The notes under the pieces were generated by a model that was given only the letters and a program-made list of their open reading frames with translations, ran no database searches and had not been told where the DNA came from. A DNA stretch of 42,460 nucleotides. It comes from a virus (Duplodnaviria > Caudoviricetes). The stretch covers positions 1 through 42,460 of the IMG/VR virus record IMGVR_UViG_3300049381_000006; one strand, given 5' to 3'. Shown here piece after piece: positions 50 through 35,959 of the stretch (position 1 is its first letter; each line of letters begins with the position of its first letter). The translations under genes and the position numbers were made by a program.

Positions 50-1375
50 ATGGCACGAATTCACAACATCCGAATCGCGAGCCTGGTGGGACACCGGATC
101 CACCTCCACACCGCCGAGACGCCCGACACCATCACCGAGGGCGGCGAGCACGAGCCCGTCGCGGTCCTCGACCCGACCGGCACCATCGCCCGCGCCGGAT
201 ACATCGAGATCAGCGACCCCTACGTGGCCCCCGGGCTGCCTGGCGTAGAGCTCGTCGACATCCTGCCCGGGCCCACGACCGGGCTCCCCGCTCCTGCGGC
301 CGGGACGCTGCACCTGGTGTCGTGGCCCGCCGCGCAGGCCGCGCCGGATCGCAGCGACCTGATCGTCAACCTCCGGCATGTCCGCGACAGCACTGGACGC
401 GAGGTCGGCGCCAGGCGCCTCGGCCGGGTACTGCCCGCCCTCGGCGTCGCCGGCGAGCACCGCGCTGGCCGCGCCACCATCATCATGGGGCTGCCGGGCT
501 CCGGGAAGTCGTATCTGGCCGAGCAGATCACCACCGCCGACCCCGAAGCGCGCGAGCTTTGCCGCGACACCATCCGCGACGAACTGGTGGCCGCCGGCTA
601 CTGGCACGGCACCGACAAATGGGCCTTCGACGCCCGGGACGAGCAGCTCGTCACCGCCGTGCAGACCCGCCGCATGATCGGATACCTCGTCGAGGGGCGG
701 CATGTGGTCGTCTCCGACATGAACCTCCGGCCCGAGTACGTCACCCGACTCGTCGCCATCGCCCGATCGGTCGGCGCGGAGTGGGAGCTGATCGACCTCA
801 CCAGCGTCGACATCGACCTCTGCGTCGCTCGCGACGCCGCGCGGACCGTCGACAAGGTCGGCGAGGACAAGATCCGGTTGCTCGCGGCCGAAGCCGGGAT
901 CGGCGTACACATCTCCACGATGCCCACCCCGACCGGGCGTATCCCGGGGATTATCGTCGACGTCGACGGAACCGTAGCCAGGATCCCCGTCGACGCCGAC
1001 GGCAAGCGGACGCGCAGTCCCTACGTCGACGGCGAGCACCTGGTGGGCGCCGACCTACCCGTGCTCCCGGTCATCACCGCGGTGCGCGCCATGCACACGG
1101 CCGGCCACGCCGTCATCGTCACGTCCGGCCGCACCCGCGGATGCGAGCAGGAGACCCGCCGGTGGCTCGACGAGCACCTCGGCGTCCCCTACGCGCTGCA
1201 CATGCGGCCGGTGGGCGACCGACGCCACGACTACCTCATCAAGCGCGAGATTTACATCGACCACATCCACGCCCGGTACGACGTCCTCGCTGTATTCGAT
1301 GACCGCGACCAGGTCGTCAGCGAGTGGCGGCGGCTGGGCCTGACCGTGTTCCAGGTCGCCGAGGGGGGCTTCTGA
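50..1375 (+). CDS. Polynucleotide 5'-kinase/3'-phosphatase (T4 PseT/Pnkp-like) with an extra ~130-aa N-terminal domain
   Basis: P-loop GLPGSGKS, RD motif (CRDTIRD), HAD motif DVDGT, SGR and FDDRDQVV...FQVAEGGF end typical of phage Pnkp; RBS AAAGGAG upstream. Confidence 0.9.
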   Translation: MARIHNIRIASLVGHRIHLHTAETPDTITEGGEHEPVAVLDPTGTIARAGYIEISDPYVAPGLPGVELVDILPGPTTGLPAPAAGTLHLVSWPAAQAAPDRSDLIVNLRHVRDSTGREVGARRLGRVLPALGVAGEHRAGRATIIMGLPGSGKSYLAEQITTADPEARELCRDTIRDELVAAGYWHGTDKWAFDARDEQLVTAVQTRRMIGYLVEGRHVVVSDMNLRPEYVTRLVAIARSVGAEWELIDLTSVDIDLCVARDAARTVDKVGEDKIRLLAAEAGIGVHISTMPTPTGRIPGIIVDVDGTVARIPVDADGKRTRSPYVDGEHLVGADLPVLPVITAVRAMHTAGHAVIVTSGRTRGCEQETRRWLDEHLGVPYALHMRPVGDRRHDYLIKREIYIDHIHARYDVLAVFDDRDQVVSEWRRLGLTVFQVAEGGF

Positions 1376-19604: not shown

Positions 19605-19892
19605 TCAGCTCTCCGGAGGCCAGTACGCCGCGGTGAACACGTACTCGGCCCCGGTCGGGACTTCGGCATCCCGTTTGGCCTTCGCCGCGTCGAGTGCATC
19701 CCGGTCCGGGTACAGGGCCACGGACGTTTTGGCCTGGGTGCCGTTGTGGCCGTCGAGCTGCACGGCGACGTTGACCAGGACCTCGGACCACACGCGGGTG
19801 ATGACCGCCGGCGCGGTGTCGGTCCCGTTGTTCGTGGTCGGGTGAACCGTGACGAGCACGGTCTGCCCGAGGCTCGGCGTCTGCTGGCCCAT
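19605..19892 (-). CDS. Small conserved phage protein
   Basis: PSLGQTV...APAVITRVWS..VNV.V pattern; coupled to the capsid stop. Confidence 0.75.
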   Translation of the reverse strand: MGQQTPSLGQTVLVTVHPTTNNGTDTAPAVITRVWSEVLVNVAVQLDGHNGTQAKTSVALYPDRDALDAAKAKRDAEVPTGAEYVFTAAYWPPES

Positions 19893-21349
19893 CAGCTCCG
19901 CGTCTCAATCTCGACGAAGGCGCTGAGGGTGTCTCCGCTGTTGGCGGGGGTGATGGCCGACTGGAGCCAGGGGCGGCCGTCGACGCGCTGCAGGATCCGG
20001 TACGCGGTCTGGTCGTTCGCGAACCGGTAGTCCGTGGACTGGTCCATCGACATCATCTGGCGGTCGCCGATGAGGTAGTAGTCGAGGTCGGCGAAGACCA
20101 GGTCGCCGCGGGTGCCGAGCTGCGACGCCTTCTCGGTGATGACCAGGGGCCGTCCGAGGATCGTCATCGGGCCGGGGCCGGCGATGTTGAGGAGCATGAC
20201 GGGCGCACCACCGGTGCCGACGCTGACGGACAGCGTGTACAGCTGGACCAGGGTTTCCGGCGACGCGTACCACACGGCCCGGTTCAGCGACGCCGGGAAC
20301 ATCCGCGAGTACATGTTGATCACGTTCTCGGTGGTGATGGTGTTGGCGAGCTGCCCCGCGTCCTTCGTGATCGCGATGGCCGCGCTGTTGGCCGCGCCGA
20401 TGAACCCGAGCGGCTCACCGGCACCGGTGCCGGTCATGTAGGCGAGGTCCTCGAAGAACGCGAGCGCCTTCGGCCACAGGCCCTCGACGAGCGCAGTGAA
20501 CGACAGGAACGAGTCCTGGAGCAGCTCGTTGGGCACCAGCGCGAACCCGGTGAGCTTCTTGGCGTCGAGGACGGCGCGGCCGAACTTCGGCGACGACTCG
20601 GTGAACGCGGCGGATTCCTCGCCCCAGTAGGCGATCATGCCGCCGAACACGGAACCCGCGTTCGTCGTCGAGTCGATCATGGGGAACGGGACGCGCGGCG
20701 CCTCCATCGGCACCACCGTCGCCCGCGGGCGCACCACGCTCGTCTCCAGCGACAGCTGCAGCAGCTGCGACCGGAACACCTCCGGCACCAGGAACCCGCC
20801 CTCGGACGGCACGACGGAGCTCGTCGCGTTGCGGATCTGCGCGATCTTCTCCGTCGCGGCCTCGGACTGGTTGCGGTGCCACGTGGCCCGCACGAAGTCC
20901 TCGAAGCTGCCGAAGATGTTGTCGAGCGGGGCACCAGCGGCGCGCGGGTTGTGCCGGGTGGCCTGCCGGTGCGAGTTCGACATGCCCGTCGGGCGGTGCT
21001 GCGGGTCCAGGTTGAGACGCCGGATCGAGTCCTTGACGTCCTTCTGGTCGTTGTCGCGGAGCATCTGCGCGAGGCCCCGCTGGACGCCCTCGTCGATCTG
21101 ACGGGCCAGGTCCGTGTCCGGCGCCTGCTGCGCGGCGGCGTAGTTGACGACGAACTCGGTCAGCGCTTCGGGGCTGCCGACGATGTCCTTGGCCCGGGCC
21201 GGGTCCGCGATCATCTCCGCGAGCTCGGTGGCGTTCTTCGGGACCGGCAGGGCGACCCTGTTGTAGACGCGGCCGAACCGTGCCCGGTTGATACCGGAGC
21301 AGGCCAGCTTGTGCCGCAGCCCGGGGCTGAGGTGGATGGTGCCCTTCAC
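19892..21349 (-). CDS. HK97-fold major capsid protein with N-terminal scaffold (delta) domain
   Basis: EGGFLVPE, WGEE, KKLTG...ELLQDS, GTGAGEPLG, TILGRPL, RVDG motifs; GGAGG RBS with GTG 21349. Confidence 0.95.
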   Translation of the reverse strand: MKGTIHLSPGLRHKLACSGINRARFGRVYNRVALPVPKNATELAEMIADPARAKDIVGSPEALTEFVVNYAAAQQAPDTDLARQIDEGVQRGLAQMLRDNDQKDVKDSIRRLNLDPQHRPTGMSNSHRQATRHNPRAAGAPLDNIFGSFEDFVRATWHRNQSEAATEKIAQIRNATSSVVPSEGGFLVPEVFRSQLLQLSLETSVVRPRATVVPMEAPRVPFPMIDSTTNAGSVFGGMIAYWGEESAAFTESSPKFGRAVLDAKKLTGFALVPNELLQDSFLSFTALVEGLWPKALAFFEDLAYMTGTGAGEPLGFIGAANSAAIAITKDAGQLANTITTENVINMYSRMFPASLNRAVWYASPETLVQLYTLSVSVGTGGAPVMLLNIAGPGPMTILGRPLVITEKASQLGTRGDLVFADLDYYLIGDRQMMSMDQSTDYRFANDQTAYRILQRVDGRPWLQSAITPANSGDTLSAFVEIETRS

Positions 21350-24300
21350 TTGGTTGCCTCCTGGGCAGTGGGGTCGTCCGGGGTGGACGGCTCGGGGGTC
21401 GTGAGGCCGCTGACGAGGCTTCGCCACGGGTCGGCTGGTGTGGTGGTCCATGCGGGTGCCGCCCATGTGGCCGACGGCGCGGTGACGGGCGTGGTCGGTT
21501 CCGGGGCCGGTTCCGCATCAGGCGTGCCGGTGCCGGTATCCGGTGCTTCGCCAGCCAGTTCGGCATCGTGTTCGGCGACGGGTTCCGTATCTGCGGCTTC
21601 CGCCGGTGCCGTCTCGGCCACGTCTGCGGGCGTACCGTCGAGCTCCGGTCCGTCCGTCACCGCCACGGCCATTGCCACTGGCATGAGGACCGGGGTGGGT
21701 GCCCGGTCGCGGCCCGCGAACGCGAACACGGACAGGTCCCACGCTGATTTCACCGGCCGTGCCGGGGCGAGGACGTCGCCGCCGATGTCGTCGGCGAGCC
21801 CGAACTGAACGGCTTCGTCGGCGTTGAACCACGTCTCGGCCTTCATCAGCCCGCGCCACGTCTCGGCGTCGCCGCCGGCACGTTGGCTGTAGATGGCGGC
21901 GATGGTCGCGGAGGTGCGTTCGAGGAGGTCGGCTTGTTTGCGGAGCTGCTCGGCGTTGCCGTACGCGTCGGACCACGCTTCGTGGATCATCATCTGCGCG
22001 TAGCGCATGATCGTGATCCGGTCCCCGGCGCACGCGATGAACGACGCGGCGCTCGCCGCCATCCCGTCGATGGTGACGTTGATCGTGGCGTGGTGTTCGC
22101 GGAGCGCCCCGTAGATCGCGACGCCTTCGTGTACCTGCCCGCCGGGTGAGTTGATGTGCAGGTTGATCGTGGACGCTTTGACCTGGCGGAGTTCTTCGCA
22201 GAAGTCCGCCGCGGTGACACCGAAGTAACCAACCTCCCCGTACAGGTAGATGTCGGCGACGCCCGCCTTGTTCTCGATCCGGAACCATTTCCGTTTGGCT
22301 TGGACCCGCAGCCGGGTGCGTGCCGCGCGGGCTTCTGTTCTGGCGCCCACGGGACGGCCTCCTTTGTGGTTGATCGGCTCGGTGAACGCGCGGATCGGCA
22401 GCAACCGGCGCCTGTTGGCTGCGGGTCGCGTTTTCGCGGTCGTGTTGGACGGCCCGAGCGCGGGCTCACCGGGCGGCGCGGTCGGCTTGCCAGGGGCGGC
22501 CAGCGGGATGTCGACGGCGTCGCCTGCGAACGCGACCCGGATCCGGTCGAAGGTGACCGGGCCGAGCCGGGCCACGAGGTCCTTCAGCAGGGCGGGGTCG
22601 GCGGAGTACGCGACGCAGATATGCGGCTGCCACGGGGTGTGCTGCGGCGGGACGTCGAGTGCGATCCCGCCGTCATGCCACGCCTCGGACATCGTTTCCC
22701 GGTAGACCGCAAGGGTGTCCTGACCGGTGGGGCGTTCGTCTGCGGGGAGGTCTCCGACGCCGAGGACCCAGGCGGGCTTGTCGCTGTCGGCGTTCCACAG
22801 GTCCGCTCCGAACACCCGCGCCTCGACGGGCGGGAGCTCGCGCCGTTCGACCATCGACCGGACTGCGGTCACCAGTGCTGTGCGGGTCTCCGCGCTGATC
22901 GCTGCGGCGTCGCCGAGGTACCACAAGGTCAGATGCAGTTCGCCGACTGGTTCGCCGCCGTCCACGGCGAGACGTGCGGCATCGGCGTCGGTGGGGATCA
23001 GGGCGACCATCGCCCCAGTCGCAGTGTCGGCGGCGTTGTTGCGCGGGGGCGCCGTTCCGGGGTTGTTTTCGACCAGCGGCATCGCCTGTGCGGCGGCTGC
23101 CGCGAACGTGTCCTCTGCAACGCCAGCAGGCACGGCGTTCTCCGGTTCCGGCGATGCCTTCACGACCAGGTCATTGAGGTGCCGCAGGAACCTGGGCATG
23201 TCCGAGGCGCCGAGATCCGCCATAAGCGCCGGATACTCCTGGCTCAGACCCAACTCGTCGTTGTTTGGGAACGTCCACCCGACGGCATCTGCCGGACGTA
23301 CGGCGATTTCGAACCGCCAACCCGCCTCGCCGTCCTCCACGCCCCACATCTGGTAGGCCAGGTCGCCCCACTCACCGGCAGGGATCGTCCCCTCGCTGAT
23401 GATGTCGTCGATCTCCGAAGAGTGGCCGTTGAAGCCGCGCATCCGGTCATCCCACTCGGCCAACTCGGCGAGCCGAGCCGCTTGGGCGTCGTTGAGCGGG
23501 CCTTCGTCGCGCGCGTCCTCAAGGCGCTCCATCTCCGACCAGTGCTTCTTGATCTCCACGCGGCGGGCTTTGGCCACCACCCCTTCGGCCTCGAACGCGG
23601 CGCTGATCCGCTCGACATCGGCGGGACGGAGCTTGAGCGTTCCCCCAAGATTTGCGGCAGACCATTTCCGCTCGTCGTCGTGGTAGACGATGCCGAGCCT
23701 GACCTCAGGTCCCGTCTGCGTGGAGATCGCTGCACCGAGCGGTACGGTCTCGGAGTTGCCGTCGACGGGCAGCTTCCGGCTCGCGCGTAGCACTTCGCCG
23801 TCGCCGAGCTGAATCCGCTTCGCGAGCTTCAGCTTGTCGCCGGGGATACCGTCGGACCACTGCCCGTCGTCGTCGCGTTTCTGCCCGGGGTTGTACTTCC
23901 CGCGCGGCGCCCGCCTGGTACGACGAGCAGCCGTCGCCGACGGACCGGGCTCGTCGTCCCCGACCACCCACTCGATGCCGTCGTCGTCTTCGGCGGCGTC
24001 TTCGGCGGCGTTGGCCATCTCGAAGATCGCCTCAGCCAGTTCGTACGCCTGGTCCTGGCTCATGTCCGCCGCAGCGTCGGCGAGGTCGCCGTTCTCGTCG
24101 ACTTCGTGGATGCCGACGTTGCCCGCGCCGTCCACGGCGACGGCCCACCCGTTGCCGAGGTCGCTGTAGTCGTATACGTCGGCGTCGGCGTCGGCGGGAA
24201 CGTCTACGGTGGCGGCCCACCTCAGTTCGTGCGCGACGCGGCGCATGTCTGCCGGGTCGTCGAACTCGACGAGCACCTCGTGCTTGTCGATGCCGTCGTC

Positions 24301-24537
24301 CTCTTCGTTGTGGTCGACGACGAGGTGTGCGCTGCCGTCTTCGAACACGCGGACGCTGACCATGCCGATCTCGTCGCTGCCCGTGCGGTCGTCGTAGACG
24401 TCGCCGTACGCCGACTGGTAGAAGTCGGCGTCGAAGATCCCGCCATCGGGGGTTTCGGCGAAGCGGCCTCTGCCGTCGCGGATGTAGCGGCGGCTGACGA
24501 CGACCGGTGCGGGCGCGTGGAGGAGGGTGGCGGTCAT
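21346..24537 (-). CDS. Multidomain protein: two unknown acidic domains + 2H phosphoesterase + ClpP-type prohead protease
   Basis: ClpP motifs INSPGG, DGMAASAAS, MMIHEA, ETWFNADEAVQFGLAD (about 21770-22290); 2H motifs HLTL and HICV (about 22500-23020); ATG overlaps the portal stop. Confidence 0.9.
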   Translation of the reverse strand: MTATLLHAPAPVVVSRRYIRDGRGRFAETPDGGIFDADFYQSAYGDVYDDRTGSDEIGMVSVRVFEDGSAHLVVDHNEEDDGIDKHEVLVEFDDPADMRRVAHELRWAATVDVPADADADVYDYSDLGNGWAVAVDGAGNVGIHEVDENGDLADAAADMSQDQAYELAEAIFEMANAAEDAAEDDDGIEWVVGDDEPGPSATAARRTRRAPRGKYNPGQKRDDDGQWSDGIPGDKLKLAKRIQLGDGEVLRASRKLPVDGNSETVPLGAAISTQTGPEVRLGIVYHDDERKWSAANLGGTLKLRPADVERISAAFEAEGVVAKARRVEIKKHWSEMERLEDARDEGPLNDAQAARLAELAEWDDRMRGFNGHSSEIDDIISEGTIPAGEWGDLAYQMWGVEDGEAGWRFEIAVRPADAVGWTFPNNDELGLSQEYPALMADLGASDMPRFLRHLNDLVVKASPEPENAVPAGVAEDTFAAAAAQAMPLVENNPGTAPPRNNAADTATGAMVALIPTDADAARLAVDGGEPVGELHLTLWYLGDAAAISAETRTALVTAVRSMVERRELPPVEARVFGADLWNADSDKPAWVLGVGDLPADERPTGQDTLAVYRETMSEAWHDGGIALDVPPQHTPWQPHICVAYSADPALLKDLVARLGPVTFDRIRVAFAGDAVDIPLAAPGKPTAPPGEPALGPSNTTAKTRPAANRRRLLPIRAFTEPINHKGGRPVGARTEARAARTRLRVQAKRKWFRIENKAGVADIYLYGEVGYFGVTAADFCEELRQVKASTINLHINSPGGQVHEGVAIYGALREHHATINVTIDGMAASAASFIACAGDRITIMRYAQMMIHEAWSDAYGNAEQLRKQADLLERTSATIAAIYSQRAGGDAETWRGLMKAETWFNADEAVQFGLADDIGGDVLAPARPVKSAWDLSVFAFAGRDRAPTPVLMPVAMAVAVTDGPELDGTPADVAETAPAEAADTEPVAEHDAELAGEAPDTGTGTPDAEPAPEPTTPVTAPSATWAAPAWTTTPADPWRSLVSGLTTPEPSTPDDPTAQEATK

Positions 24538-26582
24538 GTGCCCGCCGCCGGGTTCCAGGTGGCGGTCACGGTTCCGCGGCAGCGCCACCGGCCGAGGCAC
24601 AGGTGGTAGGGGCCGCCTGCGTATGCCTGCCATGCGTCTAGCCAGGTGTCGAACACGGTGCCGTGGATCTTCCGACAATTGACACAGGTAAATTTGTCGA
24701 GGACTTCCGTCGCCGTGTAGATCGTCTGTGGGACGTCGCGGACCGTCTCCAGCCGGCCAATGTTCTGCGCCCGGGTCAGCGCCGCACCGAGCTGCTCCCG
24801 CAGATGCGCAGGCGACAGCCCGTCGAGGTGCTTACGGACATCCGCCGTCACCTGCTCGGCGGGGACACCGGGCGCGTACACGCGTAGCGCTTCCCTGCCT
24901 GCGGACTGCGCCAGTCCGTCACCGAGAAGCCTCGCGACCACCTCAGCGACCGGCACCATGTCCGGCGGGGTGTCCGGGACGGGGATCGTCCGGCCCTGGG
25001 CGGCGGCCTCGCGGGCCATCTGCCTCGCGGCGGTCATGCCCATGTCCACCATCGCGGCGGTGAGCACCGCGACTGCGGCGGTTGTGGTGACGGTCAGCGC
25101 GGCGAGTGCGGCCACGGTGCCCGCCGCGATCGCTGCGGTGATCTGGGCGAGGAGTTCGGCCTGCTGTGCGGCGGTGATCCCCGCCCACACCAGGAGGAGC
25201 GCGGCGAGCGCGGCCTCCCAGTCGGCCTGCACCTGCTGGAGTTCCTCGTCGACTGGTGGGGGTTCGCCGGGGTCGGCGGGTGCGGCGTTGAGCCACGACA
25301 GGGCCGCGAGCGTCGACTGCGGCTTCGGGGCGGGGTTCTTCAGCCCTCCGCTCGGCGGTGCCGCCGGCGGGGTGGGTGGTTCGGGTTTCTTCCACACCAT
25401 GCCCTCGGGCAGGCCCAGCGGTTTGATCAGCGAATTGCCGTCAACACCGGCCTGCACGTAGGACACGAACGCGGACGCCTTCGACGTGCGCTCCCGGTCA
25501 CGTGCTGCGGCGTCCGGCGGCACCGGGTCGTCGTGGTCCCACTCCAAACCCTCACCGGTCGGCCCGTAGAGGGGCAGGAGCTGGAAGTTCAGCATGTCCT
25601 TGAGCCGGTCCAGGCGCGGCACCGTCACGTATTCCGCGAACATGACCTTGCCGCTCTCGGCGATGGCCCGGTTCGCGCCCTCCGTCAAACCGAGCATCGT
25701 CTTGGAGACACCGAACGCGACGAACAGTTTGTCGTCGCCGATCCGGGCCAACTCGACGAACTGCATGTCCCGCATGGAGTACTTGCGGTCGACCCACTTC
25801 ATCTTGTTTTCCAAGATGGCGACCCGGTGCGCGTTGTCGATGCCCTGGTGCGCTTCGGCCCACCTGTCTCGGAACTCGTTGAACTCGTCGTCGGACAGGC
25901 GCTCTTCGACCTCGATGATCCCGCCCGGCTCGGCACCGTTGGTGAAGAAGTTCCGGTTCCACTCCTCCGCGTACCTTTGCGCGTCCAAGGTGCGCATCGA
26001 CGCCTGCACGGGTCCGAGGCCGCGGTACGGGTTGTCGGGGTCGGGGCGGCGCATCGGGATCACGTCGTCGATCTCGAGCGGGATCTCCTCCCCGTCGGGG
26101 GAGGTGTAGATGTAGCCGATCAGGTATTCGGTCGGGGACACGACGGGACGCATCCGGTGCGGCGGCACAGGCCACAGCTCAAGCGGGATCTTGAACCGTT
26201 TGTTGCGGGCGACGACGATCCAGCCCTCACCGGTGAGGTCGAGGTGCTGCTGCTCGGTTTCGATGAAAAGTCTCTGGGTGAAGAACTTGTTGGGCCGGTT
26301 CCACAGGTCGAGGCACGCGTGTTCGGTGACTTCGACCCGGTCTTCTTTCAGCCCGGATTTCGCTTTGCGGTACAGGTGCCAGCCGACCGCAGCTGTTGCG
26401 GTCGAGGTTCGGTCGACGATGCCGAACAGGGTTCCGTTGCTGCCGTATGCCCGGAGTTGCGCCTGCTGGCCGCGTGGTGCCGCGTAGTGTCGGCCCCCGC
26501 CGACGGCGGCAGACCGCGATACGAGCGGGACAGGCGACGCGTTCCGGACAGCGGCGGCGAGTGTCGAGATCAAGTCCCTCAC
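24534..26582 (-). CDS. HK97-family portal protein fused to a MuF-like head morphogenesis domain
   Basis: RPN, YRGLGPV, FFTNGAEPGG, AFGV portal motifs; C-terminal A.N.GR...LD..TC..C...C.GR.RCRG MuF-like motif; GTG overlaps the upstream TGA. Confidence 0.92.
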   Translation of the reverse strand: MRDLISTLAAAVRNASPVPLVSRSAAVGGGRHYAAPRGQQAQLRAYGSNGTLFGIVDRTSTATAAVGWHLYRKAKSGLKEDRVEVTEHACLDLWNRPNKFFTQRLFIETEQQHLDLTGEGWIVVARNKRFKIPLELWPVPPHRMRPVVSPTEYLIGYIYTSPDGEEIPLEIDDVIPMRRPDPDNPYRGLGPVQASMRTLDAQRYAEEWNRNFFTNGAEPGGIIEVEERLSDDEFNEFRDRWAEAHQGIDNAHRVAILENKMKWVDRKYSMRDMQFVELARIGDDKLFVAFGVSKTMLGLTEGANRAIAESGKVMFAEYVTVPRLDRLKDMLNFQLLPLYGPTGEGLEWDHDDPVPPDAAARDRERTSKASAFVSYVQAGVDGNSLIKPLGLPEGMVWKKPEPPTPPAAPPSGGLKNPAPKPQSTLAALSWLNAAPADPGEPPPVDEELQQVQADWEAALAALLLVWAGITAAQQAELLAQITAAIAAGTVAALAALTVTTTAAVAVLTAAMVDMGMTAARQMAREAAAQGRTIPVPDTPPDMVPVAEVVARLLGDGLAQSAGREALRVYAPGVPAEQVTADVRKHLDGLSPAHLREQLGAALTRAQNIGRLETVRDVPQTIYTATEVLDKFTCVNCRKIHGTVFDTWLDAWQAYAGGPYHLCLGRWRCRGTVTATWNPAAGT

Positions 26583-26863
26583 CGGCGCCCGTCCGGCGGT
26601 GTGTCGGAGAGCAGGAAGTTGAGGAAGAAGCACGCGACGCCCGCCACGGCCATTCCCGCGCCGATGCCCCACTCCACCCACGCGCCTGCGGTCATCCCGG
26701 CGAGGCCTGCGGTTTGGAGGATGAACGCGCGGATGCCCTTGGACTGCCGCCGTAGCGCTATCGCACCCGACGCGACGGCCGAGACGGCCCGGCGGGCCGC
26801 ATGACTGAGAGCGGCGAACGACACTCGGGATGCCTGGGGTGCGGCGTGCGCGGCGGTGGTCAT
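26579..26863 (-). CDS. Small membrane protein upstream of portal
   Basis: Two C-terminal hydrophobic helices; coupled on both sides. Confidence 0.75.
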   Translation of the reverse strand: MTTAAHAAPQASRVSFAALSHAARRAVSAVASGAIALRRQSKGIRAFILQTAGLAGMTAGAWVEWGIGAGMAVAGVACFFLNFLLSDTPPDGRR

Positions 26864-33264: not shown

Positions 33265-33674
33265 GCCACACCTCCGGCCTTGCTGCGTTCGCGCACCGCT
33301 TGTGCCCGCTGCCGATCAGCGGGCGCGAGCGGCGTCGGCATTCCTATGGCCTCGTGGATGCGTTCGTAGACGCCGTCAAGCGTCAGGTCGACCGAGACGT
33401 GCTCCCACGACAGCGGTCCGATGAGCCGGGTAAGGCCGATGATGCGGCCGACTATGCCGTCACACTGGATTGACCAGGTTCCGTCGGCCGAGTGTCTCCG
33501 CGCTTCTGCCAGGTCCGTCCACGCCAGTTCGAGCAGCCATCGCAGGGCCGCGTCGGGTGTGGCGTATTCCTCGGTCTGGCCGGCTTGGGTGACGGCTTCG
33601 TCGACGGATTCGAGGGTGGTCCGCTTGCGCCAGCGGTGCGCCAGTTCGGACGCGCTCAGCTCCTGCTCGCTCAT
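33261..33674 (-). CDS. Hypothetical protein
   Basis: ATGA coupling; GC3 bias. Confidence 0.7.
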   Translation of the reverse strand: MSEQELSASELAHRWRKRTTLESVDEAVTQAGQTEEYATPDAALRWLLELAWTDLAEARRHSADGTWSIQCDGIVGRIIGLTRLIGPLSWEHVSVDLTLDGVYERIHEAIGMPTPLAPADRQRAQAVRERSKAGGVA

Positions 33675-33946
33675 GCCGCCCAGTCCTCTCGCCAGTCCGG
33701 GTGAGACCGGTACACGGACGCGAGCAGCCGCTCTACCTGATGGAGCAGGCCCTTCATCGCCAGCGCATCGCCGAGCAGTCCGGGATTGTCGATCGCCCCC
33801 GCGCAGTGCTCCAGGATCGCGTGCCTGGCATCGATCTCGGCCAAGGCACGTTCGGCATCGCCTGTTGCACCGGGCCGCATCGCCTGGTGCGTGTCTTCGG
33901 TGTGCCGGTCCGCGAGGAACGCGACCAGGCCGTTGGTGTCCGTCAT
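33671..33946 (-). CDS. DUF6221-like protein (short form)
   Basis: LVAFLADR.ED...RALAEIDAR..IL...LLASVYRSHPDWREDW. Confidence 0.75.
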   Translation of the reverse strand: MTDTNGLVAFLADRHTEDTHQAMRPGATGDAERALAEIDARHAILEHCAGAIDNPGLLGDALAMKGLLHQVERLLASVYRSHPDWREDWAA

Positions 33947-34269
33947 GCCGCAGCCTGCCCGCTCGCGAGGATCGCCGCCGCGAACCGGGGGCAGCTCATC
34001 AGGTACTTCCGGTCGCAGCCACAACCCTCACTGTCGTGGATCTTCGTCGCCTTCTCAAGCAGGTCGGCCCGCTCGATCACCGACTCGCCTACCGGCGCCC
34101 GGTCGAGGCGGTCAAGCACCCCGGCTGCCGCGAGCGCGTCAGCGGCCGTACCGATGACGATCGCGGTGTGGCGCTGTTCAGGGGTGCGGCCGGGCACGGC
34201 TTCATCCGCGTCGGTCGCCGTGGTGAACTTCCCGTGCTCGTCGCGCACCCGTTCGTCCCTGTTCGTCAT
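33943..34269 (-). CDS. Hypothetical protein with N-terminal RDEHGKF motif
   Basis: ATGA coupling; C-terminal H...CGC....C cluster. Confidence 0.65.
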   Translation of the reverse strand: MTNRDERVRDEHGKFTTATDADEAVPGRTPEQRHTAIVIGTAADALAAAGVLDRLDRAPVGESVIERADLLEKATKIHDSEGCGCDRKYLMSCPRFAAAILASGQAAA

Positions 34270-34655
34270 GTCGCGTCGCTTCCGTCGTTGATGAGCCCGT
34301 CGTGCCTCGCAACCGCCGCATAGCGGCCGGCCTCCGGCATGGCGTTGAGCAGCGCCGCCAGCTCGTCACAGATCTGCCGCGTGCTCCGTCCGAGCCCTTC
34401 GGTGACCGCCGGCGCTTCGGGTGGCAGGCCCGCGATCGGCCGACCCTCGAAGTAGGGCGCGTCCAAGTCGGCGTCCGACCATCCGTTGTAGTACGGCTCA
34501 ATCACGCCGTTGAGGTTGTAGTCGTCGATCACGGCGTGCAGCGGCCCGCCCGTCGGGTGGATGGCGTACAACTCACCGATCAGCTCGACTGCCCGTTTGA
34601 CCTGCTCGTTCCAGGTGGTCGGCGAGCCCGCGTTCTCCCAGCACTCAACGCACAT
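34266..34655 (-). CDS. Hypothetical phage protein
   Basis: MCVECW...GGPLHAVIDDYNL motif. Confidence 0.7.
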   Translation of the reverse strand: MCVECWENAGSPTTWNEQVKRAVELIGELYAIHPTGGPLHAVIDDYNLNGVIEPYYNGWSDADLDAPYFEGRPIAGLPPEAPAVTEGLGRSTRQICDELAALLNAMPEAGRYAAVARHDGLINDGSDAT

Positions 34656-35091
34656 CGGTCGCCCATTCCTCTTGCCGGCCCGGATGCGCCCGGTAGACGC
34701 CCGTGATGTCCCGGACGTCCGCGCAGGGCCACGCCTGGCCGTGGCAGCGGTTGCAGACCAGCGTGCCCCAGTGTGGCGCCTCGCAGGTGCGACACCCGCC
34801 CATCGCGTGCGGGCTATGCCGGGCGATGATCGCCCGCTTCGCCCCGACCTCCGCCAGCACCCGAGCCGGGTCGTGGCGTGCGATGTGCTCGACCAAGCCC
34901 GGTGCGAACTCTCGGCCCTCGTGCGGGTAGGCGAGGCACCACCCGTTGCGAGTACCGAGCGCGTGCGCGTCTCGAACGATCCATTCGCCGGTCCACGGCG
35001 GGCTGTTGTCATCCACGGCCCGCGCGGTCGCCTCGTCCTCGGCCAGCCGCACGGTGAGAAATTCGACGATCTCCATATTCTCGCCGCTCAC
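34645..35091 (-). CDS. DUF6221-like protein
   Basis: IVEFL..RLAEDE..A...HIARHDPARVLAEV.AKR.II...WPC...VY..HPG.QEEW. Confidence 0.8.
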   Translation of the reverse strand: MSGENMEIVEFLTVRLAEDEATARAVDDNSPPWTGEWIVRDAHALGTRNGWCLAYPHEGREFAPGLVEHIARHDPARVLAEVGAKRAIIARHSPHAMGGCRTCEAPHWGTLVCNRCHGQAWPCADVRDITGVYRAHPGRQEEWATDVR

Positions 35092-35471
35092 AGTTCGATT
35101 CCGTATCCGTCGGACAGCAAGAGCAGTGTCGGGCACGGGTACGCCGACTCAGCGTAGAGGTGGCTCCCCTCCAGGCACGTCTGGCAGATCGGGTCGCCCG
35201 CGACCGCGACATACGGGGCGTGCAGGTCGAGGATCTTCCGGTGCGCGGCGACCATCCGCAGCGTCCGGACGGGGCAGGTTGCCACGATGTGCGCGGCCGT
35301 CGCCCGGGTCTGGTTCGAGCTCAGCGCGAACGCGTCGGCGACCGTCACACCGTCGACCGCGATAACCTCGTCTTGCTCCGGGTTCGCCGACCACGGTCCG
35401 GGGCTCGCGGCGAGCGCTATCCGCTCCGCCTCGTCGATCGCCTCACGCAGTCTCGTGATCAAGTCGCTCAT
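35088..35471 (-). CDS. DUF6221-like protein
   Basis: RLREAIDEAERIA.AA.PGPW...AAHIV...P.R.LR.VAAHRKIL.LH...C.TC...YPCPTL. Confidence 0.75.
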   Translation of the reverse strand: MSDLITRLREAIDEAERIALAASPGPWSANPEQDEVIAVDGVTVADAFALSSNQTRATAAHIVATCPVRTLRMVAAHRKILDLHAPYVAVAGDPICQTCLEGSHLYAESAYPCPTLLLLSDGYGIEL

Positions 35472-35959
35472 TCGCTGGTCACTCCATAGGCCTCGATCAT
35501 CAGTTGGAACACGTCGGCCATCAGCCACGCCCTCGCCTCAGCCTCAGCGTTCTCGTACTGTTTACCGACCACCTGCCCGCACATGTCCACGAGCTTCCGG
35601 TCGACCGCGCACCGCCGCAGGACCTTCGCCGGGTCATGCCTGACGATGTGGACCGCCGCAGCAGCCTTCACCTCCTCGGCGCTGCCGCCAGGGAACGACG
35701 GCAGCCCTCGGACATCCCAGCTCAACTGGTACCGCTCCTCGCTGCGCAGGGACACCCCGACGGAACCGCACACCGGGCACTCCACGAACTCGTCGACGAC
35801 CGGATCGGGCTCGATCACGGTGTCGCACTCGCAACACTCCCAGCGCCAGTGCTCACCCGTCGGAGTGCCCGGTTCGCTCGTCTGCGATGCGGCAACCGCC
35901 CACGCCGCAGTCTCGTCGATCGCCGCCCGAAGCCGGTCGATGCGCCTCATCTCGCTCAC
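35468..35959 (-). CDS. DUF6221-like protein with inserted zinc ribbon
   Basis: RLRAAIDE...CCEC...CPVCGS...HIVRHDPAKVLRRC..DRK. Confidence 0.75.
   Translation of the reverse strand: MSEMRRIDRLRAAIDETAAWAVAASQTSEPGTPTGEHWRWECCECDTVIEPDPVVDEFVECPVCGSVGVSLRSEERYQLSWDVRGLPSFPGGSAEEVKAAAAVHIVRHDPAKVLRRCAVDRKLVDMCGQVVGKQYENAEAEARAWLMADVFQLMIEAYGVTSE

What the first reader, a model, noticed from the sequence alone, without database searches (positions are those of the whole stretch)
21346..24537. Prohead protease as a cargo polyprotein: two tagged unknown domains + 2H phosphoesterase + ClpP
One uninterrupted 1063-codon ORF places about 750 aa in front of a normal ClpP-type maturation protease. The order is [RYIRDGRGRF + acidic domain]-[YNPGQKRDDDGQW + second domain]-[2H]-[ClpP]-[Pro/acidic tail], separated by low-complexity linkers. 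Established: prohead proteases are incorporated into procapsids and process head proteins. Inference: the passengers are packaged, cut free and possibly ejected with the DNA as immediate anti-defence effectors, comparable to MuF-fused effectors but using the protease as carrier.
Basis: partly seen in the sequence, partly recalled or inferred. Interest (0 to 1): 0.82.

Follow-up and report, generated by a model that had tools for sequence, protein, structure and literature searches.

The report
Head protease with swappable tagged cargo
A soil phage fuses its capsid-maturation protease to three passenger domains (a predicted nucleotide phosphoesterase and two domains with a predicted PUR/Whirly fold, each opened by a short recurring peptide tag) that relatives swap like cassettes, so the protease likely carries them into the virus head and cuts them free; the carrier idea is already predicted in print, but the tag and these folds were not found there.

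Summary
Observation confirmed (minus strand). The 1063-codon ORF lies between portal-MuF and HK97 capsid genes: tag+domain A, tag+domain B, 2H phosphoesterase, ClpP-type head protease, Pro/acidic tail. One separately assembled contig spans it without a difference, and 20 other ClpP proteases carry the same passengers, 12 arrangements in all. A phage with a 94% identical capsid has different cargo in this gene. Domains A and B model as PUR/Whirly folds but are acidic. The tag ([YF][DN]PxQxRDxxG[RKQ][WF]) recurs in portal, MuF, S78- and Mu-gpI-protease fusions and solo head-module genes. After domain B the linker follows the phage's protease class (Asn 5/5 ClpP; xxAA 14/14 gpI/assemblin; basic 5/6 S78), and Asn marks the capsid delta junction in 39/45 ClpP phages, which supports release by cutting. 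The A|B linker has no Asn. A strong internal ribosome site (GTG 22350) likely also makes a plain 334-aa protease. Packaging, cutting, ejection and anti-defence are inferred, not shown. Effector fusions to head proteases are already predicted in print, so this is a new variant of a known kind; the tag is the most novel part.

The parts
21346..24537 (-). Cargo-protease polyprotein ORF, 1063 aa (P0001); ATG overlaps the portal stop (ATGA), and its stop overlaps the capsid start (GTGA)
   Evidence: spanned by one contig
24460..24489 (-). Tag 1 (RYIRDGRGRF, residues 17-26)
23989..24429 (-). Domain A (about residues 37-183): predicted tandem beta-sheet/helix repeat, PUR/Whirly/SsgA-like fold; strongly acidic (net -36)
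   Evidence: AF2 single-sequence model, mean pLDDT 60.6; VIA top five all PUR/Whirly fold, Pur-alpha Z 9.3, rmsd 4.4 over 128; charge
23899..23988 (-). A|B linker, acidic then basic; contains no Asn
23857..23895 (-). Tag 2 (YNPGQKRDDDGQW, residues 215-227)
23158..23844 (-). Domain B (about residues 232-460): predicted PUR repeat I-II fold with an inserted helical hairpin; net -14
   Evidence: AF2 with 30-sequence alignment, pLDDT 87.3; Foldseek Pur-alpha E 1.8e-4; VIA Z 9.9, rmsd 4.5 over 144
23023..23157 (-). B|2H linker with five Asn (467, 491, 492, 500, 501): candidate self-cleavage sites (inferred)
22498..23022 (-). 2H phosphoesterase domain (about residues 506-680), motifs HLT 535 and HIC 639
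22351..22497 (-). 2H|ClpP linker with Asn 698, 708, 723 and a conserved LLPIRxFTxP motif
22348..22365 (-). Internal Shine-Dalgarno AAAGGAGG, 7-nt spacer and GTG (V730): likely start of a 334-aa plain protease
21763..22302 (-). ClpP-type head maturation protease core; S829, H852 and E901 invariant in 9 aligned relatives (assignment as the catalytic triad recalled from ClpP)
21349..21702 (-). Pro/acidic tail ending in a conserved Trp-containing motif (PAWxxxPADPWxxLV); role in procapsid binding inferred only
24534..26681 (-). Upstream portal gene with a C-terminal MuF/SPP1 gp7-like domain (about 24645-24869) and no toxin after it
   Evidence: TIGR01641 E 1.2e-3
19892..21349 (-). HK97-fold major capsid gene (GTG 21349, SD AGGAGG); predicted delta-domain junction IRN|ATS near 20830

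Best explanation
This is an in-frame fusion of a ClpP-type prohead protease to three swappable passenger domains, and the protease likely carries them into the procapsid, cuts them free after Asn residues and leaves them to be ejected with the DNA as early-acting effectors. Shown: the ORF, domain order, intact-looking protease, cassette-like cargo variation, the recurring tag, and protease-class-specific linker motifs. Predicted: PUR/Whirly folds for A and B. Inferred steps: (1) the long form is made at low level by ATGA coupling to the portal gene, while the strong internal site at 22350 makes a more abundant 334-aa protease; (2) both forms enter the prohead through the shared protease/tail part; (3) the protease cuts after Asn, as at the capsid junction IRN|A, freeing 2H on both sides and B at its C-end, with A probably still joined to B; (4) the RDxxG[RKQ][WF] tag, left near the N-end of freed cargo, keeps it in the head or on the DNA for ejection; (5) in the new cell the 2H hydrolyses cyclic-phosphate RNA ends or cyclic oligonucleotide signals, and the acidic PUR-fold domains more likely bind or decoy a host protein than bind nucleic acid.
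For: Position between portal-MuF and capsid, overlapping both. 12 of 97 long ClpP hits have more than 150 aa of N-terminal cargo and 4 more have C-terminal tagged cargo; 5 further ClpP fusions came from the A+B profile. The quick tree puts four arrangements in one five-member clade (SH-aLRT 99) and cargo-bearing proteases in several places among solo ones. L152: portal 83%, MuF 72%, capsid 94% identical, yet the cargo is 2H (43%) plus another tagged domain; DNA similarity stops at about 24528 and resumes at 22287 apart from short patches. 39 of 136 scanned A/B homologues are fused to a head protein: ClpP 5, S78 7, Mu gpI 12, portal 11, MuF 4. At least 30 of 35 viral loci found by the tag pattern have a head gene in the ORF or within 6 kb, with InPase, ART, LPD3, Zeta, PI3/4-kinase-like, Nudix or PG-binding domains after the tag. 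Asn sits 10 residues before the capsid GGxxVP motif in 39 of 45 distinct ClpP-locus capsids. In 25 aa after domain B: Asn 5/5 ClpP against 2/20 others; xxAA 14/14 gpI/assemblin; xR[RSK] 5/6 S78. Pooled over five domains: Asn 28/37 against 18/51, p 2e-4; xxAA 37/43 against 12/37, p 9e-7. Prior predictions of head-packaged effectors on MuF, portal and peptidase (PMC5512222, PMC9503650; passages read).
Against: No virion, cleavage or delivery data. The Asn test was not significant in two earlier forms (11/19 against 10/32, p 0.08; 24/33 against 16/31, p 0.12); motifs were chosen after seeing the data, the S78 pattern was widened, and rows are related. Domain A is followed by Asn in only 2 of 8 ClpP cases and not here; P0029 and P0030 have no Asn in the 70 aa before the protease core. 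Asn specificity of phage ClpP proteases was not found in print and the capsid junction is a predicted site. The internal SD is strong here, kept in X2 and L147, weak (AGGA) in L152 and absent in L099, L100, L104 and L112. Cargo is dispensable: only 5 of 113 ClpP loci had a credible N-terminal extension. A third tag occurs in a 108-aa ORF outside the head module. Proteases and scaffolds often leave or are degraded during head maturation (established knowledge), so fused cargo need not be kept.
Confidence: 0.55

Rival explanations
1. The passengers act late in the producing cell, not in the next one: fusion (or coupling) to the protease gene times and places a signal-degrading 2H and decoy domains where head assembly triggers defence, and nothing is ejected.
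For: A prohead protease scaffold domain can trigger Type I CBASS toxicity (10.1101/2023.05.21.541620, abstract and section 8 read). The 2H profile hits Acb1 structures weakly (E 8e-4). A tagged ORF lies outside the head module.
Against: Late expression needs no fusion, tag or class-matched linker motif. The same domains ride on portal and MuF, which are virion parts. Linkers switch with the protease class.
Confidence: 0.2
2. The cargo is packaged and cut but works inside the head or during ejection (acidic internal/scaffold-like proteins, DNA spacing, or degraded pieces), not as anti-defence effectors.
For: A and its homologues are strongly acidic (net -24 to -36), like scaffold or internal proteins (recalled). 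No enzyme motif in A or B. PG-binding domains, which suggest envelope work, are common co-cargo.
Against: Most relatives lack the cargo, so it is not structural. Rapid swapping and enzyme co-cargo (ART, kinase, Nudix, Zeta) fit host conflict.
Confidence: 0.15
3. Functionally two genes: a tagged cargo gene inserted between portal and protease lost its stop codon; the working protease comes only from GTG 22350 and the tag, not the protease, loads the cargo.
For: Strongest SD in the ORF at the ancestral start; M or V kept at that position in the close relatives; domain B occurs solo, portal-fused or protease-fused in the same portal-protease interval; 26 of 40 short homologues have an N-terminal tag.
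Against: In-frame linkage recurs in several branches and on both ends of ClpP; X2's four linker indels sum to zero; four ClpP genes with another N-terminal domain have no internal SD; predicted protease sites flank the cargo.
Confidence: 0.09
4. Assembly chimera or chance open frame.
For: Uncultured single record at 68% GC, where long open frames arise by chance (several shadow frames).
Against: One 5250-base contig spans it with no difference; coding codon pattern throughout; homologous fusions in other data sets.
Confidence: 0.01

Closest known systems
Phage polyvalent proteins (Iyer et al. 2017, PMC5512222; passages read)
   Same: Several unrelated domains in one late-gene polypeptide, variable among orthologues, predicted to be packaged, processed and injected; assemblin-like head peptidases at C-termini of such proteins and 2H fused to MuF or portal are described.
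   Different: The carrier here is ClpP-type ('ClpP' has 0 occurrences in that paper's main text); PUR/Whirly-fold cargo and the tag are not in the passages seen (whirly 0, ssga 0, pc4 0). Its FTP supplements were not seen and may list such architectures.
Effector fusions to head proteins incl. the capsid-processing serine peptidase (Iyer et al. 2022, PMC9503650; passages read)
   Same: States that Nudix proteins are fused to MuF, portal and the capsid-processing serine peptidase, and 2H to MuF/portal, and predicts packaging and injection.
   Different: Prediction only; no processing sites, tag, internal start or ClpP class mentioned in the passages seen.
'Capsid maturation protease and MuF-like fusion protein' / 'RNA ligase' genes of cultured actinophages (e.g. 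Streptomyces phage TurkishDelight gp15, Gordonia phage Zitch gp20)
   Same: Same 2H family (up to 50% identity; 399 records) inside the protease gene of the head module.
   Different: Those two have no ClpP-type protease by inspection and resemble the MuF/assemblin-type group; domain B has no match in 50,697 cultured phage records and no cultured record covers 80% of the protein.
MuF polymorphic toxins (recalled; also PMC7302621 passages on MuF-VIP2 fusions)
   Same: Head-associated carrier with variable cargo.
   Different: MuF here ends the portal gene with no cargo; the cargo is N-terminal on the protease; no immunity gene follows.
Phage T4 internal proteins/Alt with the capsid-targeting sequence (recalled)
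   Same: Short N-terminal signal plus cleavage by the prohead protease; solo tagged genes here often have a short leader ending in a class-matched motif.
   Different: T4's signal is removed; here the conserved tag lies after the predicted cut and would stay on the cargo, and it recurs inside polyproteins.
PUR/Whirly/SsgA-fold proteins, incl. jumbo-phage ChmC (PMC11077065; passages read)
   Same: Predicted tandem beta-sheet/helix fold.
   Different: No sequence similarity detected; A and B are net acidic, whereas ChmC binds RNA through Lys/Arg patches and is not described as head cargo in the passages seen.

Membership tests
ClpP-related head maturation protease (NF045542) | Profile score above the curated cut-off | tested here: met
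   192.8 bits against 120, residues 761-918
ClpP-related head maturation protease (NF045542) | Catalytic Ser (AAS) and His intact; gene between portal and capsid | tested here: met
   S829 and H852 invariant in 9 sequences; neighbours
ClpP-related head maturation protease (NF045542) | Cleaves the capsid precursor | not testable with these tools
   Site predicted only
2H phosphoesterase superfamily | Two Hx[T/S] motifs | tested here: met
   Both His invariant in 8 aligned sequences; HLT 535 canonical, second motif is the variant HIC 639 (HxT/HxS in most relatives)
2H phosphoesterase superfamily | Similarity to solved 2H enzymes | tested here: met
   Profile A5 hits LigT-like 1iuh E 2e-6, 1vdx E 2e-4; the single sequence gave no real hit
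Acb1 (anti-CBASS 2H) | Closer to Acb1 than to LigT-like enzymes; cleaves cyclic oligonucleotides | tested here: inconclusive
   Acb1 9q2g E 8e-4 and 7t26 E 0.25, weaker than LigT-like hits; activity untested
Polyvalent proteins (Iyer 2017) | Two or more disparate domains in one polypeptide, encoded among virion genes | tested here: met
Polyvalent proteins (Iyer 2017) | Architecture varies among orthologues | tested here: met
   12 arrangements in 21 ClpP proteins
Polyvalent proteins (Iyer 2017) | Packaged and delivered with the DNA | not testable with these tools
   Inference only
MuF polymorphic toxins | MuF domain with a C-terminal toxin in the same chain | tested here: not met
   No MuF hit in P0001; the MuF-like domain ends the portal ORF
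MuF polymorphic toxins | Small immunity gene directly downstream (recalled feature) | tested here: not met
   The capsid start overlaps the stop codon
PUR/Whirly fold | Tandem (beta)3-4-alpha repeat superposable on Pur-alpha/Whirly | tested here: met
   B: Foldseek E 1.8e-4, VIA Z 9.9; A: VIA Z 9.3 on a lower-confidence model, Foldseek E 0.1
PUR/Whirly fold | Basic/aromatic sheet binding single-stranded nucleic acid | tested here: inconclusive
   Net charge -36 (A) and -14 (B) argues against; surface patches were not computed
T4-type capsid-targeting sequence | N-terminal signal sufficient for packaging and removed by the protease | not testable with these tools
   The tag is N-terminal in 26 of 40 short homologues but lies after the predicted cut

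The most novel reading that the evidence does not exclude
The [YF][DN]PxQxRDxxG[RKQ][WF] peptide is a portable, lineage-crossing head-cargo signal: placed behind whatever cut site the phage's own protease reads (Asn for ClpP, VxA for gpI/assemblin, Arg/Lys for S78), it loads and ejects any attached domain with the genome, giving a one-line rule to find injected phage effectors, among them a new family of acidic PUR/Whirly-fold decoys.
Probability: 0.3. Interest if true: 0.82.

Novelty: new variant of a known kind. Interest (0 to 1): 0.58.

Why it matters
Proteins injected with phage DNA act before any phage gene is expressed, and in small tailed phages they are mostly predicted, not demonstrated. 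This gene and its relatives form a natural swap series on one carrier, with testable cut sites (Asn), a testable two-product gene, and a short tag that marks cargo across portal, MuF and three protease classes. If the tag is a loading or ejection signal it would let such effectors be listed by sequence and offer a handle for loading proteins into actinophage heads. If not, the finding is one more instance of an already predicted theme, with two newly assigned folds.

Tried and rejected
Assembly error: rejected. ESM Atlas gave no usable hit for A or B, and Pfam, PHROGs and NCBIfam none; the tag peptides had no Pfam hit at E 10 (6 of 6). A and B are not detectably related in sequence (hhalign probability 0.1). 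The genome-contig scan gave one unrelated locus; the domain-B protein scan of viral contigs gave none and the B alignment was too divergent to scan; P0039's own contig was not recovered. No RNA holder listed, so nothing on expression. Single-sequence search of the 2H against solved structures gave only spurious gasdermin hits. The first tag regex missed Thr variants (corrected); domain-B ends were misplaced (one row, dropped before pooling) and redone. The careful tree did not finish, so only the quick tree is cited. L004, L017 and L018 have long open frames before ClpP but a non-coding GC pattern and were not counted as fusions. A recalled likeness of the tag to DNA-binding RDxxGRF motifs of small terminases was not supported by any hit. 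No complex prediction was run. Literature searches that found no description of the tag, of Asn specificity or of PUR-fold head cargo: (open-licence library only; a motif shown only in a figure or supplement would be missed).
Full report
OBSERVATION. The window is an IMG/VR virus record, 68% GC, with a tailed-phage late operon on the minus strand: terminase, portal, the ORF in question, HK97-fold capsid, tail genes. The ORF runs 24537 to 21346 on the minus strand, 1063 aa without a stop, with a coding codon pattern in all 11 bins. Its ATG overlaps the portal stop (ATGA) and has no SD match; its stop overlaps the capsid GTG. The ClpP-related head protease domain passes the NCBIfam cut-off. The 2H domain is supported by PHROGs 2659 and 18402, two invariant His motifs and a profile hit to LigT-like structures. 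A 5250-base Logan contig spans 20489-25737 with no difference (this may be the source sample).

RELATIVES. Of 97 ClpP-like proteins of 584-1861 aa, 12 have more than 150 aa before the protease and 4 more carry tagged domains after it. A profile of domains A and B found 544 representatives at E 1e-3; 150 were listed and 136 of the 145 new ones were scanned with Pfam: 5 are fused to ClpP, 7 to S78 protease, 12 to Mu gpI-type protease/scaffold, 11 to portal and 4 to MuF; 40 of the 145 are under 400 aa, 26 of them with a tag in the first 110 aa. Together 21 ClpP proteins show 12 arrangements of 2H, A, B and a further domain C. On a quick tree of 50 protease cores (the careful search did not finish) the five closest, SH-aLRT 99, have four arrangements, and cargo-bearing proteases occur in several places among solo ones. 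L152 has portal, MuF and capsid 83%, 72% and 94% identical to the window's, the same ATGA coupling, but 2H (43%) plus tagged domain C as cargo; DNA similarity runs to about 24528 and resumes at 22287 with only short patches between. The fusion is uncommon: of 113 ClpP loci fetched without regard to cargo, one has a 2H fusion and four another N-terminal domain.

THE UNKNOWN DOMAINS. Domain B, folded with 30 sequences (pLDDT 87.3), matches Pur-alpha repeats I-II (Foldseek E 1.8e-4; VIA Z 9.9, then StWhy2 8.1 and PBF-2 7.6). Domain A was folded without an alignment (mean pLDDT 60.6); its five best VIA hits are Pur-alpha 9.3, an SsgA-like protein 7.7, MRP1/2 7.5, StWhy2 7.2 and PBF-2 6.8, while Foldseek gave PURA only at E 0.1, so this assignment is weaker. 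A and B show no sequence relation. Both are acidic (net -36 and -14; homologues -24 to -33 and -6 to -11), unlike the RNA-binding phage Whirly protein ChmC (PMC11077065, passages). A shared fold shows no function; a decoy or protein-binding role is my inference.

THE TAG. Consensus [YF][DN]PxQxRDxxG[RKQ][WF][TAS]D from 184 regex instances. A loose form occurs in 106 of 145 A/B homologues (partly circular, as the profile included it), in 197 of 2900 shuffles and in 1 of 81 control ClpP or ClpP-capsid proteins. A DNA pattern for one variant gave 35 viral loci (several are the same or similar phages). At least 30 have a terminase, portal, MuF, head protease or capsid gene in the ORF or within 6 kb, 3 had none detected, and 2 were not tested separately. 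Domains behind it include InPase, ART, ART-PolyVal, LPD3, Zeta, PI3/4-kinase-like, Nudix and PG-binding. A second pattern for domain B gave 13 loci; in most, B lies between portal and protease as a portal tail, a solo gene or a protease head. The window has a third tag at the N-end of a 108-aa ORF (33943-34269) outside the head module, which tempers the claim that the tag is head-specific.

PROCESSING. In 45 distinct capsids from ClpP loci the residue 10 before GGxxVP is Asn in 39 and Ala in 5; here IRN|ATS. That this is the cut site is inferred from HK97-type delta domains (recalled). Before tags, S78 fusions end in basic residues (7/7) and gpI fusions in VxAA-like motifs (21/25), whereas Asn for ClpP was inconclusive (11/19 against 10/32, p 0.08). 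In 25 aa after domain ends, one search gave Asn 24/33 against 16/31 (p 0.12) with domain B mis-detected. With B fixed, B is followed by Asn in 5/5 ClpP proteins and 2/20 others, by xxAA in 14/14 gpI/assemblin-type and by xR[RSK] in 5/6 S78 proteins; pooled, Asn 28/37 against 18/51 (p 2e-4) and xxAA 37/43 against 12/37 (p 9e-7). Motifs were chosen after inspection and rows are related, so the p values overstate. In this protein the B|2H linker has five Asn, the 2H|ClpP linker three and the A|B linker none.

INTERNAL START. V730 is the only one of 47 in-frame start codons with a strong SD and lies 21 codons before the first conserved Trp, in the range where stand-alone ClpP genes start. A relative in run X2 keeps the GTG and an AGGAGG (spacer 4 nt), and its four nearby indels sum to zero. 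L147 has GGAGG-8-GTG at the equivalent place and a second internal SD before its scaffold part. L152 has only AGGA, and the four genes with another N-terminal domain have none. A two-product gene is likely here but is not general.

MECHANISM (0.55). Low-level long form by coupling to portal, abundant short protease from 22350; both enter the prohead; Asn-directed cuts free 2H and an A-B or B piece; tagged pieces are kept and ejected; the 2H removes cyclic-phosphate ends or nucleotide signals; A and B act as decoys or binders. Every step after translation is inferred. Rivals: late action in the producing cell (0.2; a prohead protease scaffold can trigger CBASS, 10.1101/2023.05.21.541620, abstract and section 8), an internal-head role (0.15), functionally two genes with tag-only loading (0.09), artefact (0.01).

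WHAT IS KNOWN. PMC5512222 (passages) describes 2H fused to MuF/portal and assemblin-like peptidases ending polyvalent proteins. PMC9503650 (passages) names fusions of Nudix to the capsid-processing serine peptidase and predicts injection. PMC7302621 (passages) reports MuF-protease and MuF-VIP2 fusions. PMC13728456 (passages) added nothing on cargo. The same 2H family is in 399 cultured phage records, often annotated as protease or protease-MuF fusion. Earlier AI notes of this scan report like cases in other genomes; they are not independent support. My searches found no description of the tag, of Asn specificity or of PUR-fold head cargo; supplements of the Iyer papers were not seen and may bear on this. 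Verdict: it works like a polyvalent/MuF-type cargo protein and meets the testable features of polyvalent proteins; it is not a MuF toxin. New variant of a known kind, interest 0.58.

Noticed in passing
window 33943-34269 (-): 108-aa ORF outside the head module that begins MTN-RDERVRDEHGKF: a third tag, with Asn shortly before it, and a Cys/His-rich C-end; no Pfam hit and only E 0.25 in PHROGs. Possibly a solo tagged cargo.
   Followed up: partly
window 50-1375 (+): Polynucleotide kinase (AAA_33) plus HAD phosphatase with an extra N-terminal region: an RNA-end repair enzyme that could pair with the 2H activity.
   Followed up: no
window 24534-26681 (-): Portal fused to a MuF/SPP1 gp7-like domain with no cargo after it; similar C-terminal regions are in 14 other ClpP loci.
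   Followed up: partly
window 33671-35528 (-): Three paralogous ORFs of PHROG 6326 (unknown function) close together.
   Followed up: no
L099, L100, L104, L112; P0032, P0016, P0020, P0142, P0146: A roughly 100-aa His/Trp-rich domain (HHT..WDGP..YCHAW..FPHH..GPAN) fused to ClpP, gpI/assemblin-type and S78 proteases; followed by Asn in 5/5 ClpP cases and by xxAA in 3/3 gpI/assemblin cases.
   Followed up: partly
P0031 222-490; P0032, P0033, P0035, P0039, P0069, P0078, P0255: Domain C, a second tagged acidic cargo on either end of ClpP; by eye it may hold four beta-sheet/helix repeats, not folded here.
   Followed up: no
L142:43-1314: The same 2H lies upstream of the MuF-like region, on the portal side, with a solo ClpP downstream: the 2H moves between head genes.
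   Followed up: partly
L147 ORF residue 466; P0034, P0093, P0107, P0114: 2H-ClpP proteins ending in a Mu gpI-type scaffold with its own internal SD and GTG: a ClpP core in a gpI/gpZ-like gene layout.
   Followed up: partly
L046:3519-7170: Tagged ART-PolyVal/ART protein next to a topoisomerase IB gene, with no head gene detected nearby.
   Followed up: no
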